A DNA stretch of 64,000 nt from Planctomycetota bacterium (lineage in GTDB: Bacteria > Planctomycetota > MHYJ01 > WSZJ01 > JACPWG01): assembly GCA_016197205.1 (NCBI GenBank), contig JACPWG010000194.1, positions 52,429 to 116,428 of the forward strand, in the 5' to 3' direction. Positions 42,135 through 42,394 of this stretch are shown here, in pieces; position 1 is the stretch's first letter, and the number at the start of each line of letters is the position of its first letter. The position numbers and the translations under genes were made by a program. The notes under the pieces were generated by a model. The model was not told where the DNA came from and searched no databases. It saw nothing but the letters and a program-made list of their open reading frames with translations.

Positions 42135-42394
42135 GCAGGCTTCCCGGCCGTCGGGTTCGCTGCCCATGCGCCTCCGGCGAGCCTGAGGGCATTCTTCGAC
42201 AGAAAGTTCCTCTGCGCCTCTGCGTCTCTGCGGTTCGTTCCCGCTTTCAATCGGCCACGGCCCTGCCGCCTTGTCGACGCTGCGGGCCCGTCCACCTGCG
42301 GCCGCGGCCTCATCTCGCGTCTCTTCGAAGGGACTCTTGTACCACATTTCGGCCCGCATTTCTCGGAAGTTTTTTTTCCTGGCCCGAATCCGCC

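What the first reader, a model, noticed from the sequence alone, without database searches (positions are those of the whole stretch)
42183..42225. Dispersed 25-30-nt motif CCTCTGCG(C/T)CTC(T/C)GCG(T/C)CTCTGCG upstream of several minus-strand operons in both the CIS island and the polysaccharide locus
Copies were read at ~16560, 26430, 32685, 42190 and 51150, plus inverted copies at ~16728 and ~35567. Each sits 35-210 bp upstream (in gene orientation) of a minus-strand start: GT4 at 42134, GT4 at 51105, the cap gene at 32520, and the gpI-like gene at 26217. Several are followed by related tails (gtgttttcgtc... or aaaagtcaacaaccc). This could be a shared transcription-factor binding site or sigma-factor element co-regulating polysaccharide decoration and the CIS-like particle. 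It could also be the end of another short mobile element.
Basis: seen in the sequence. Interest (0 to 1): 0.5.

Follow-up and report, generated by a model that had tools for sequence, protein, structure and literature searches.

The report
Widespread octamer-triplet intergenic repeat
The motif is real, but it is not a switch specific to these gene clusters: it is one copy of a short non-coding repeat (three tandem 8-base units plus a short tail) that sits at gene boundaries in many bacterial phyla and their phages, and I could find no description of it.

Summary
The motif is confirmed. There are six exact 21-mers in the window against 0 expected, plus two variant copies. Each copy is a tandem array of the octamer YCTCYGCG, usually three units, followed by a short tail. 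All eight copies are intergenic. They lie in the CIS and polysaccharide loci, but also between frr and an unknown gene and between DUF2851 and aroK.

The same array occurs in at least 120 species genomes across more than 12 phyla, in at least 120 viral contigs and in 33 plasmids. Across these it is nearly always exactly three units. About 40% of copies have an inverted partner with tails pointing outward. The tail side abuts an ORF end, so the purine-rich strand reads outward from the gene, often 0-15 nt after the stop codon.

It is present or absent between relatives. The whole 228-nt spacer at 42168-42394 is missing in a relative whose two genes overlap. No linked gene, target-site duplication or Rfam family was found, and the sequence strings gave no relevant paper.

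My best reading is a generic, REP/MITE-like dispersed repeat with strongly constrained arms, not a shared CIS/polysaccharide regulator. The closest described analogue is the heptamer arrays of Xanthomonas and Nostoc, whose function is also unknown.

The parts
42209..42232 (+). The copy in the finding. Array CCTCTGCG CCTCTGCG TCTCTGCG, followed by tail GGTTCGTT (42233-42240). It lies 42 nt from the GT4 start (42167, minus strand) and 163 nt from the AsnB-like stop (42395).
   Evidence: gene limits
42168..42394 (-). The 228-nt spacer between the AsnB-like gene and GT4 that carries the array. It is absent in a relative, where the two genes overlap by 4 nt.
   Evidence: A same-organism Logan contig ends exactly at the array.
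51150..51173 (+). Array CTCTGCG CCTCTGCG TCTCTGCG T, with tail TAAATAAAAGCTGACAACCC. It lies 33 nt from the GT4 start (51117, minus strand) and 100 nt from the epimerase stop (51273).
32685..32707 (+). Array CTCTGCG TCTCCGCG CCTCTGTG, with tail TTTTCGTC. It lies between the amidohydrolase stop (32793) and the Pvc16-like start (32565).
26434..26456 (+). Array CTCTGCG TCTCCGCG CCTCCGTG, with tail TTTTCGTC. It lies between the Baseplate_J stop (26532) and the Tail_P2_I start (26274).
16561..16584 (+). Array CCTCTGCG CCTCTGCG CCTCCGTA, with tail GTGAAAAAAGTCAACAACCC. It is the left member of a tails-inward pair between the convergent frr (stop 16407) and a 770-aa minus-strand ORF (stop 16938).
16754..16776 (-). 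Inverted array CTCTGCG TCTCCGCG TCTCTGTG, with tail TAAAAGTC. It is the right member of the same pair.
   Evidence: (I11, I18)
35565..35595 (-). Four-unit variant array CTCAGCGT x3 plus CTCTGCG, with tail GTAAAAAAAATGCG. It is the left arm of a tails-outward pair, 116 nt from the DUF2851 start (35449).
35803..35817 (+). Two-unit array CGCTGCG TCTCTGCG, with tail GTTCGTC. It is the right arm of the pair, 111 nt from the shikimate-kinase stop (35928).
6282..6406 (.). A sister element with the same grammar but another word. Its arms are an inverted pair (6282-6323 and 6365-6406) made of CTTCGTGG / CTTGGTGG octamers, each ending outward in GTTTCGTCG.
   Evidence: (I9)
48769..48803 (+). A sister array: AATTCGCGA-type unit x3 followed by tail GTTCCGTTC.
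35700..35790 (.). A sister inverted pair of AATCTGTGA-type units with tail GTTCCGTC, nested inside the 35565/35803 pair.

Best explanation
The motif is one arm of a high-copy, non-coding dispersed repeat. One arm is about 35 nt: a pyrimidine-rich lead-in, three tandem octamers YCTCYGCG, and a 5-7-nt tail that is shared within a genome but differs between lineages. Arms occur alone or as inverted pairs with the tails pointing outward, bracketing 6-300 nt of non-conserved DNA.

The element sits in intergenic DNA with its tail against an ORF end. On the mRNA-sense strand one therefore reads stop codon, tail, (CGCRGAGR)x3, or, at the other end, (YCTCYGCG)x3, tail, start codon.

Shown here:
- It is gained and lost between relatives.
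- It is found on chromosomes, plasmids and phages of many Gram-negative phyla.
- It has no linked gene.
- Six of the eight positions in each unit are held fixed, while two vary freely by transitions.

Inferred: it spreads within genomes as a small non-autonomous module, by insertion without target duplication and/or by gene conversion between copies. Its arms are kept constant because some trans-acting factor reads the three units; this could be the mobilising enzyme or a host protein. In this window it is therefore generic intergenic furniture. Any effect on the CIS or polysaccharide genes would be a by-product, for example a hairpin in read-through mRNA where arms are paired.
For: - Non-random, period-8 architecture.
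- Distribution: at least 120 GTDB species genomes in more than 12 phyla, none in Actinobacteriota or Archaea; at least 120 viral contigs; 33 plasmids, including Nostoc PCC 7120 pCC7120alpha and Sphingobium chromids.
- Unit number is sharply fixed at three: 146 arrays against 7 with four units in genomes, and 160 against 8 in viral contigs.
- Pair geometry: tails outward 40, tails inward 4. Of 286 arrays, 113 have a partner matching at least 21 of 23 positions within 300 nt on the 5' side, against 13 on the tail side.
- The two arms covary at the variable positions (A:T 81 against 66 expected; G:C 51 against 36 expected).
- Position: an R-sense array lies within 40 nt after the stop of a long ORF in 70 of 256 cases, against 10 of 256 for the opposite orientation. 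A Y-sense array plus tail lies within 60 nt before a start in 40 of 256 cases, against 16 of 256.
- Divergent spacers are depleted: 10 of 116.
- Gain and loss: the window spacer 42168-42394 is absent in relative L122. There is a ~104-nt indel between Nostoc 7120 and UHCC 0870. The sphingomonad parA-parB spacer is 44-77 nt without arrays and 218-362 nt with them, with the element starting right after the TGA.
- Constraint: between orthologous Sphingobium copies the body is 66% identical, yet 36 of 36 fixed array positions are identical and 7 of 12 Y/R positions differ. Five diverged phage contigs keep an identical 24-mer.
- An assembler broke a contig at the array.
- No recurrent neighbouring gene.
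Against: - No target-site duplication, and the inverted repeat stops 4-7 nt beyond the arrays.
- The body between arms is not conserved, even within one genome. That is unlike a classical MITE.
- No autonomous partner or transposase was found between distant arms.
- About half of all copies, and six of the eight in the window, have no tails-outward partner.
- Identity of the 8-mer across phyla is hard to explain by mobility alone.
- The perfect conservation of an array in front of one phage gene, and of the fixed positions, would fit a host-level function equally well.
- Gene calls in the 240 loci were crude: ORF length plus GC3.
Confidence: 0.5

Rival explanations
1. It is a functional gene-boundary punctuation element. 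A conserved host or phage factor (protein or RNA) binds the three 8-nt units on DNA or on the transcript and acts at ORF ends. It might terminate or insulate read-through transcription, protect mRNA 3' ends, or favour R-loops where the RNA is the purine-rich strand. The copies are then maintained by selection, not by mobility.
For: - A strict three-unit count.
- Six of eight positions per unit are invariant while the neighbouring DNA diverges.
- An identical array is kept about 35-40 nt upstream of a conserved gene in five diverged phages.
- A fixed strand rule relative to ORF ends, and depletion between divergent genes. The same rule was reported for the heptamer arrays of Xanthomonas and Nostoc (PMC4692102).
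- In phage L200, an array lies between a stop codon and a TTGACA-17-TATAAA promoter.
Against: - Presence/absence between relatives at three loci.
- No terminator-like hairpin plus T-run next to the window copies.
- Both orientations occur within co-directional gene pairs (33 against 39).
- No excess of G.U over A.C in the transcribed strand of paired arms (10 against 12).
- Arrays are not predicted to be specially paired or unpaired in RNA.
- No candidate factor is known.
- Cyanobacteria, which carry the arrays, lack Rho (my own knowledge). That weakens a Rho-based version.
Confidence: 0.27
2. It acts at the RNA level through the ribosome. The purine-rich sense (CGCRGAGR x3, with GGAG/GAGG cores) would act as a cluster of Shine-Dalgarno-like sites just after stop codons. 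The pyrimidine-rich sense would act as an S1-binding or anti-SD-like leader just before start codons. Either way it would tune ribosome release, re-initiation or translation of the next gene.
For: - R-sense arrays lie 0-15 nt after many stop codons, and Y-sense arrays lie 10-50 nt before starts.
- GGAG/GAGG cores are present in many units, and long purine runs follow R-arrays in cyanobacteria and Treponema.
Against: - Sister arrays with the same grammar in the same genomes use words with no SD likeness: CACAAAG, CGCGAATT, TCCCAAA, CATCGCA.
- A and G alternate freely at the variable positions, which breaks pairing to CCUCC.
- Many copies lie between convergent genes or far from any start.
Confidence: 0.08
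3. It is an ordinary slippage-generated simple-sequence repeat, possibly acting as a phase-variation switch for surface polysaccharide and CIS genes.
For: - Tandem short units lie upstream of glycosyltransferase genes.
- Rare long arrays of 9-15 units exist in some phage contigs.
Against: - Copy number is fixed at three in about 300 arrays and drops 20-fold at four units.
- The same word recurs across phyla, which slippage cannot explain.
- Orthologous copies keep three units.
- Neighbouring genes are of all functional classes.
Confidence: 0.04
4. The motif is a binding site for a transcription factor or alternative sigma factor that co-regulates the CIS-like particle and the polysaccharide locus in this organism.
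For: Four copies lie 33-160 nt upstream of minus-strand gene starts in those two loci.
Against: - The window consists mostly of those two loci, so co-occurrence is expected.
- Other copies flank frr, aroK and DUF2851, and one pair lies between convergent genes.
- The element is ubiquitous next to unrelated genes in other phyla and in phages.
- It is absent from the orthologous AsnB-GT4 junction of a relative.
- No sigma-70-like hexamers overlap it.
Confidence: 0.03

Closest known systems
Intergenic heptamer tandem repeats GGGAATC (Xanthomonas) and GGGGA(C/T)T (Nostoc/Anabaena; STRR-type), Rehm et al. 2015, PMC4692102
   Same: - Short tandem units with a preferred, fixed copy number (four there, three here).
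- About 90% intergenic.
- Very close to one neighbouring ORF (about 28 nt) and far from the other (about 160 nt).
- The G/purine-rich strand is on the coding strand downstream of stops and on the non-coding strand upstream of starts.
- Under-represented between divergent genes.
- Some copies form inverted pairs.
- Neighbouring genes are of all functional classes.
- Function is unknown (compared).

The window also holds heptamer arrays of this type.
   Different: - The unit is 8 nt, cannot form a G-quadruplex, and is repeated three times.
- One and the same word is shared across more than 12 phyla, phages and plasmids, rather than being genus-specific.
- It carries a lineage-specific tail.
- Three loci show presence/absence between relatives, whereas the heptamers were reported as mostly positionally conserved between Xcc and Xac.
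REP elements and REPIN doublets (mobilised by RAYT transposases)
   Same: - High-copy, roughly 30-nt intergenic repeats.
- Predominantly inverted 'head-to-head' doublets with a poorly conserved spacer, plus many singlets.
- No target-site duplication.
- Located after genes and inside operons.
- Found in several phyla (PMC3733652; compared).
   Different: - A single arm is not itself a palindrome.
- There is no terminal GTAG or CGTC tag.
- Arms are built of three direct octamers.
- REP families are species- or genus-specific, whereas this word is cross-phylum.
- No RAYT gene was seen beside any copy, although the sampling makes that weak evidence.
Bacterial MITEs such as Neisseria Correia elements or ERIC
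   Same: - Small, non-coding, terminal inverted repeats.
- Inserted in intergenic DNA and inside operons, and co-transcribed.
- Polymorphic between strains (my own knowledge of these families).
   Different: - No target-site duplication.
- The internal sequence is not conserved between copies.
- Half of the copies are single arms.
- No parent IS is known. A classical MITE with 20-bp TIRs sits next to an array in L247 and looks quite different.
Operators made of tandem 7-8-bp units bound by ribbon-helix-helix proteins (MetJ metboxes AGACGTCT x2-5; omega-protein heptads)
   Same: This is a works-like analogy only: 2-5 tandem 8-bp (or 7-bp) units read cooperatively by one dimer per unit. It would explain a fixed unit number and an 8-bp period. 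This comparison rests on my own knowledge.
   Different: - Metboxes are palindromic, restricted to a small regulon in Gammaproteobacteria, and sit in promoters.
- These units are asymmetric, number in the hundreds per genome by extrapolation from 8 copies in 64 kb, and sit at ORF ends.
- No binding protein has been identified.

Membership tests
Gene-boundary short tandem repeat arrays (STRR / heptamer class of PMC4692102) | Tandem 6-9-nt unit with a preferred small copy number | tested here: met
   Three units in 146 of 226 arrays (genomes) and 160 of 236 arrays (viral contigs). Four units in only 7 and 8.
Gene-boundary short tandem repeat arrays (STRR / heptamer class of PMC4692102) | Intergenic, close to one ORF and far from the other, with a purine/G-rich strand rule relative to ORF ends | tested here: met
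   144 of 168 arrays are intergenic. The tail side has a median of 36 nt to a stop, and the other side about 155-173 nt. R-sense after a stop occurs in 70 of 256 cases, against 10 of 256 for the opposite orientation.
Gene-boundary short tandem repeat arrays (STRR / heptamer class of PMC4692102) | Under-represented between divergent genes | tested here: met
   10 of 116 classified spacers are divergent, against 34 convergent and 72 co-directional (crude gene calls).
REP / REPIN | Each unit is a 20-40-nt imperfect palindrome (stem-loop) | tested here: not met
   A single arm is three direct repeats with no internal inverted repeat. Rfam gave only generic hairpin hits, and only for paired arms.
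REP / REPIN | Unpaired GTAG or CGTC tag at one end | tested here: not met
   Tails are GTTCAA, GTTAAA, TGAGA, CGAGA, CGAAC and GTTYCGTC, and differ by lineage.
REP / REPIN | Predominantly inverted doublets plus decaying singlets | tested here: met
   40 tails-outward pairs against 4 tails-inward. About 40% of arrays have a strong partner and about 8% a degenerate one.
REP / REPIN | A cognate RAYT (Y1 transposase) gene flanked by the repeats | tested here: inconclusive
   No recurrent small gene family in the 120 loci. However, one RAYT locus per genome would rarely be sampled.
MITE | Terminal inverted repeats | tested here: met
   There are arms of about 30 nt (tail plus three octamers) in inverted orientation, but this holds only for the paired half of the copies.
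MITE | Target-site duplication flanking the element | tested here: not met
   No direct repeat lies outside the arms in 41 pairs or at the parA-parB filled/empty site.
MITE | Copies of a family share their internal sequence and derive from an IS with the same ends | tested here: not met
   Bodies differ within one genome (L006). The 7120 body has no other copy. No transposase lies between distant arms.
Phase-variable simple-sequence repeat | Unit number varies between copies or strains | tested here: not met
   The three-unit count is fixed. Three orthologous Sphingobium copies all have three units.
Regulon operator / promoter element | Sites lie upstream of functionally related genes, at a fixed distance and orientation to starts | tested here: not met
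   Window copies flank unrelated genes and one convergent pair. Distances to starts range from 33 to 160 nt. Neighbours elsewhere are unrelated.
Rfam RNA families | Match at or above the gathering score | tested here: not met
   0 hits in the window. In five loci there were only sub-threshold miRNA-hairpin hits on paired arms.
Integron attC site | RYYYAAC ... GTTRRRY outer cores around an imperfect palindrome directly after a cassette ORF | tested here: not met
   Some tails fit GTTRRRY (GTTAAAC, GTTAAAT), but most lineages have TGAGA, CGAGA, CGAAC or GCCAA. Single arms are not palindromic.

The most novel reading that the evidence does not exclude
The three-unit octamer array is a previously unrecognised, cross-phylum cis-element read by a conserved trans-acting factor that marks ORF boundaries in many Gram-negative phyla and is copied by their phages. 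It would be a general punctuation signal, for transcript ends, insulation or mRNA protection, in lineages where canonical terminators are scarce. The heptamer arrays of Xanthomonas and Nostoc would be sister forms of the same system.
Probability: 0.2. Interest if true: 0.85.

Novelty: new variant of a known kind. Interest (0 to 1): 0.6.

Why it matters
For this window, the result removes an attractive but wrong link between the CIS-like particle and the polysaccharide locus. The motif is generic intergenic furniture.

More broadly, an exact 24-nt non-coding array is shared by Planctomycetota, Verrucomicrobiota, Acidobacteriota, Cyanobacteria, Bacteroidota, Chloroflexota, Gemmatimonadota, several proteobacterial classes and their phages. 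It has a fixed three-unit count and a strict strand rule at ORF ends. Neither classical MITE/REP biology nor slippage predicts this.

It occurs in tractable organisms (Nostoc PCC 7120, sphingomonads, Lacipirellula). The questions of what reads the three units, and whether it spreads or is selected, are therefore directly testable. The answers could also explain the long-unexplained heptamer (STRR-type) arrays.

On the practical side, it breaks short-read assemblies and seeds spurious small ORFs (AEAQRRR-type peptides).

Tried and rejected
- **Rfam.** At gathering score on the window there were no hits. At E<=1 on five loci there were only miRNA-type hairpin matches on paired arms.
- **Literature by sequence.** Literal sequence strings returned no paper or only primer coincidences. 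Keyword searches returned REP, MITE and STRR papers, none of which describes this element.
- **Linked genes.** All-against-all BLASTP of 4006 ORFs from 120 loci found no family in more than 10 loci. The second-largest cluster consists of ORFs that run through arrays.
- **Autonomous element.** The genes between arms 0.4-3.5 kb apart are TPR, RlmN, terminase, transaldolase and XerC/D-like. None is a transposase.
- **Target-site duplication.** None was found.
- **RNA hairpin selection.** G.U against A.C in the transcribed strand was 10 against 12. Predicted unpaired probability of arrays does not differ from that of the flanks.
- **Extended conserved flanks.** Among the eight window copies there is nothing beyond about 10 nt, except a short shared stretch between 32685 and 42209.
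- **Promoter and terminator scans.** No match overlaps or adjoins the arrays between 26 and 43 kb; the nearest promoter-like site is about 100 nt away.
- **Ideas considered and dropped.**
  - ECF-type -35/-10 elements: spacing and the -10 do not fit.
  - A boxA/nut-like element: needs a 4-nt insertion.
  - attC: only some tails fit.
  - A tRNA T-arm likeness of GGTTCRA tails: not general.
  - A small ORF: the stop falls in a different frame for each tail type.
- **Own-contig look-up.** An exact-protein look-up of a window gene (the carbamoyltransferase ORF 39109-40908) found nothing.
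Full report
**1. What is in the window**

The sequence at 42209-42232 reads CCTCTGCG CCTCTGCG TCTCTGCG, followed by GGTTCGTT. Tandem Repeats Finder reports it and four of its relatives (16561, 16756, 35565, 51150) as period-8 arrays of 2.5-3.9 units. The 26434 and 32685 copies were found by the pattern search.

A 15-mer search with up to 2 mismatches gives 17 hits against 3.6 expected, and 0 of 100 shuffles reach that. The exact 21-mer CTCTGCGYCTCYGCGYCTCYG gives 6 hits against 0.00 expected.

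There are eight copies:
- 16561-16584 (+)
- 16754-16776 (-)
- 26434-26456 (+)
- 32685-32707 (+)
- 35565-35595 (-; CTCAGCGT x3 plus CTCTGCG)
- 35803-35817 (+; two units)
- 42209-42232 (+)
- 51150-51173 (+)

A hit at 47857 lies inside a Wzy-like gene and is chance. The window is 71% G+C.

Only about 35 nt is shared between copies: a short pyrimidine-rich lead-in, the array, and a tail. The tail is GTGTTTTCGTC, GGTTCGTY or an A-run followed by GTCAACAACCC / GCTGACAACCC.

**2. Gene context in the window**

Pfam assigns the flanking ORFs.
- The 16.5-kb pair lies between the convergent frr (stop 16407) and a 770-aa minus-strand ORF (stop 16938).
- 26434 lies between the Baseplate_J stop and the Tail_P2_I start.
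- 32685 lies between an amidohydrolase stop and the Pvc16-like start.
- The 35.6/35.8-kb pair lies between the DUF2851 start and the shikimate-kinase stop.
- 42209 lies between an AsnB-like stop and the GT4 start.
- 51150 lies between an epimerase stop and a second GT4 start.

All copies are therefore intergenic. Four of them are both upstream of one minus-strand gene and downstream of another. Two of the six spacers have nothing to do with the CIS or polysaccharide loci.

A sigma-70-like match (32581-32554) lies about 100 nt from the 32685 array. No promoter-like match overlaps an array, and no terminator-like match lies beside one.

**3. The same array is found across phyla**

My estimate from base frequencies is about four chance hits in 596 Gb.

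By record title the hits fall as follows:

| Group | Loci |
|---|---|
| Planctomycetota | ~17 |
| Verrucomicrobiota / Kiritimatiellia / Lentisphaerae | ~17 |
| Alphaproteobacteria (mostly sphingomonads) | ~14 |
| Beta- and Gammaproteobacteria | ~21 |
| Cyanobacteria | 9 |
| Acidobacteriota | 8 |
| Chloroflexota | 7 |
| Bacteroidota | 7 |
| Gemmatimonadota | 6 |
| Deltaproteobacteria-type | 5 |
| Spirochaetota | 2 |
| Actinobacteriota | 0 |
| Archaea | 0 |
| Firmicutes-labelled (doubtful) | 2 |

Genomic G+C ranges from 39% to 75%.

The array is also in at least 120 IMG/VR viral contigs and in 33 PLSDB plasmids. The plasmids include pCC7120alpha of Nostoc PCC 7120, Gemmatirosa megaplasmids (19 and 13 places), Sphingobium/Sphingomonas/Novosphingobium replicons and Thiodictyon.

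The window's own organism is a 'MAG: Planctomycetes bacterium' (100%-identical GT4).

**4. Anatomy across about 240 loci**

*Unit number.* It is sharply fixed. In genomes, 146 arrays have three units, 7 have four and 1 has five. In viral contigs, 160 have three and 8 have four, with a handful of long arrays of 9-15 units.

*Unit sequence.* Within a unit, CTC and GCG are fixed. The first and fifth positions are C or T in all combinations.

*Tail.* After the last GCG comes a non-random tail: position 1 is not A, position 2 is G or T, positions 3-5 are A-R-A, and a pyrimidine-rich stretch follows. The actual words differ by lineage. They include GTTCAA, GTTAAA, TGAGA in cyanobacteria, CGAGA, CGAAC in sphingomonads, GCCRA in one planctomycete MAG, and GTTYCGTC in this window.

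*Sister arrays.* The same loci carry arrays with related words (CTTTGCG, CTTCGCG, CTTGGCG, CTCTGTG, CTTGGTG) followed by the same local tail. The window does this too: 6365-6406, 48769, 35736 and 56342 all end in GTTYCGTC or TTTCGTC.

**5. Pairs**

Within 300 nt, inverted partners lie with tails outward (rc-tail, CGCRGAGR x3, body, YCTCYGCG x3, tail) in 40 cases and tails inward in 4.

Of 286 arrays, 113 have a partner matching at least 21 of 23 positions on their 5' side, against 13 on the tail side. The body is 6-297 nt long and is not conserved, even within one genome.

The two arms covary at the variable positions: A:T 81 against 66 expected, G:C 51 against 36, G:T 36 and A:C 32. There is no excess of G.U over A.C in the transcribed strand (10 against 12). 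The similarity therefore looks like a DNA-level property, not a selected RNA helix.

The inverted repeat stops 4-7 nt beyond the arrays, and no target-site duplication is visible.

In the window, 35565/35803 is a tails-outward pair and 16561/16776 is one of the rare tails-inward pairs. The other four copies are single.

**6. Position relative to ORFs**

The gene calls used here are crude but orientation-blind (ORF length plus GC3).
- 144 of 168 arrays are intergenic.
- Spacers are co-directional in 72 cases, convergent in 34 and divergent in only 10.
- The tail side is close to a gene (median 36 nt to a stop). The other side is about 155-173 nt away.
- Read in the purine-rich sense, an array follows the stop of a long coding-like ORF within 40 nt in 70 of 256 cases, against 10 of 256 for the opposite sense.
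- Read in the pyrimidine-rich sense, array plus tail precede a start within 60 nt in 40 of 256 cases, against 16 of 256.
- Often the stop codon abuts or overlaps the tail, as in TGA|CGCAGAGG, TAAc|CGC and TGAtttca|CGC. In some cases the ORF runs on through the array.

The window copies obey the strand rule. All four operon-internal copies are purine-sense after the upstream stop. Their distances (75-163 nt) are larger than typical.

**7. Gain and loss**

(a) A relative with a 70%-identical GT4 has the AsnB-like gene and GT4 overlapping by 4 nt. The whole 228-nt spacer 42168-42394 is missing. A short-read contig from the window's own organism ends exactly at the array, as expected for a repeat.

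(b) Nostoc PCC 7120 carries a ~104-nt segment that is absent from the ~90%-identical region of Nostoc UHCC 0870. The array and tail lie at the right edge of that segment. The rest of the segment has no other copy in the plasmid collection.

(c) The parA-parB spacer is 44-77 nt in four sphingomonad plasmids without arrays. It is 218-362 nt in Sphingobium 'Tom' plasmids, where a tails-outward pair starts within 5-11 nt of the parA TGA and ends about 13 nt before the conserved CTACA...ATGTTC operator-like sequence.

Between two orthologous copies of case (c), the flanking genes are 94-96% identical and the body only 66%. Yet all 36 fixed array positions are identical, while 7 of 12 Y/R positions differ, all by transitions.

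Five diverged phage contigs keep an identical 24-mer about 35-40 nt upstream of a conserved gene, although their upstream flanks are unrelated.

**8. What it is not**

- No Rfam family.
- No gene family recurs beside it.
- Arms 0.4-3.5 kb apart enclose ordinary genes, not a transposase.
- It is not a REP in the sense of PMC3733652: a single arm is not a stem-loop and has no GTAG or CGTC tag.
- It fails two MITE criteria: target duplication and a conserved body.
- It is not a slippage-type contingency repeat, because the unit number is fixed.
- It is not a locus-specific operator.

**9. Closest description in the literature**

Rehm et al. 2015 (PMC4692102) describe the heptamer arrays GGGAATC of Xanthomonas and GGGGA(C/T)T of Nostoc/Anabaena. 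Their features match point for point:
- a preferred copy number (four);
- about 90% intergenic;
- about 28 nt from one ORF and about 160 nt from the other;
- the G-rich strand on the coding strand after stops and on the non-coding strand before starts;
- depletion between divergent genes;
- some inverted pairs;
- neighbours of all functional classes;
- function unresolved.

The octamer arrays follow the same positional rules, with the purine-rich strand taking the place of the G-rich strand. They differ in four ways: they cannot form G-quadruplexes, they are fixed at three units, they carry a tail, and above all the same word is shared across phyla, phages and plasmids. I found no paper that contains the sequence. 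The library searched is incomplete, so prior description cannot be excluded.

**10. Interpretation**

*Shown.* This is a generic, high-copy, intergenic repeat module with strongly constrained arms. It is polymorphic between relatives and is not tied to any gene function.

*Inferred.* It propagates within genomes by TSD-less insertion and/or gene conversion. The wholesale switch of all six variable positions in one arm between orthologous copies looks like conversion or re-insertion. A trans-acting factor that reads three 8-bp units keeps the arms constant.

*Open.* I cannot decide whether that factor is a mobilising enzyme (the selfish reading; 0.5) or a host or phage protein acting at gene ends (the functional reading; about 0.27).

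Noticed in passing
window 16679-16718, 20289-20326, 46160-46195, 46308-46345: AT-rich heptamer arrays (AATTTGA / AATTTGC / GATTTGA, 5-6 units) sit in intergenic DNA of a 71% G+C genome. 16687-16721 and 20289-20323 are 91% identical over 35 nt. They resemble cyanobacterial STRR-type heptamer repeats.
   Followed up: partly
window 56342-56372: TTTGGGA x4.4, followed by the local tail TTTCGTCGC. It has four G-tracts, so it is G-quadruplex-capable, like the GGGAATC / GGGGATT arrays of PMC4692102.
   Followed up: no
window 22233-22493, 37505-37758 (direct) and 30788-31035 (inverted): A 200-260-nt dispersed repeat family (81-93% identity) is built of 7-8-nt TCA/TGA-ending words with an internal 49-nt inverted repeat (22291-22339 / 22385-22433).
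   Followed up: no
window 22490-22640 and 26251-26401: A 151-nt direct repeat (93% identity) contains a 57-nt G+C-rich palindrome (CCTGGGGGCGCG...CGCGCCCCCAGG). The second copy overlaps the start region of the Tail_P2_I-like gene, just beside the 26434 array.
   Followed up: no
window 19372-19686: Two families of tandem repeats (copies 130-170 nt apart) lie in the spacer upstream of the 770-aa ORF. Copies are at 19372/19542 (89% identity) and 19471/19602 (78%), with a weaker match at 63882.
   Followed up: no
window 32581-32554 (- strand): This is the best sigma-70-like match in 26-43 kb: TTGAAT-16-TATAAT. It lies just upstream of the Pvc16-like (cap) gene if that gene starts at 32520, and about 100 nt from the array.
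   Followed up: no
L182:10392-10600, L146:6845-6967, L177:1-200: Related viral contigs carry long arrays of (CGCAGAGG)x9-15. In L182 and L177 these are followed by (GCTGTC)x5-8 and (GCCCTGGTGGGCCTT)x2-3 arrays; L146 ends within the octamer array. The region looks origin- or iteron-like, and in two contigs the array lies at the contig end. This is a different, expanded use of the same octamer.
   Followed up: partly
L247:~770-915 (Sphingobium sp. TomTYG72 parA-parB spacer): A classical ~146-nt MITE with perfect 20-bp terminal inverted repeats (TAGGGCCGCTCGACATTCAG...) is inserted right after the tail of the octamer array. It is absent from the sister plasmids, and PLSDB annotates a spurious ORF across the spacer.
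   Followed up: partly
L127, L155, L156 (viral contigs), about 14 nt after the array and again after the next gene: A recurring phage motif, TTTGACACGCC-N6-GGCGTG (a TTGACA plus a hairpin), flanks a conserved gene. It could be a promoter/operator or a nut-like site.
   Followed up: no
L004:2850-3600 (Chitinophagaceae MAG): A 1.3-kb intergenic region holds five tandem ~108-nt units, each beginning with the octamer triplet plus GGTTAAAAA. They are preceded by a run of about 50 T and flanked by two array hairpins.
   Followed up: no
L200:3560-3600 and other loci listed: Some long ORFs run through the purine-sense array and end 26-59 nt after its start, giving C-terminal ...AKTQRRRGRA-type extensions. 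Either the element displaced the original stop codon or these are over-called ORFs. The arrays have no stop codon in any frame of that strand.
   Followed up: partly
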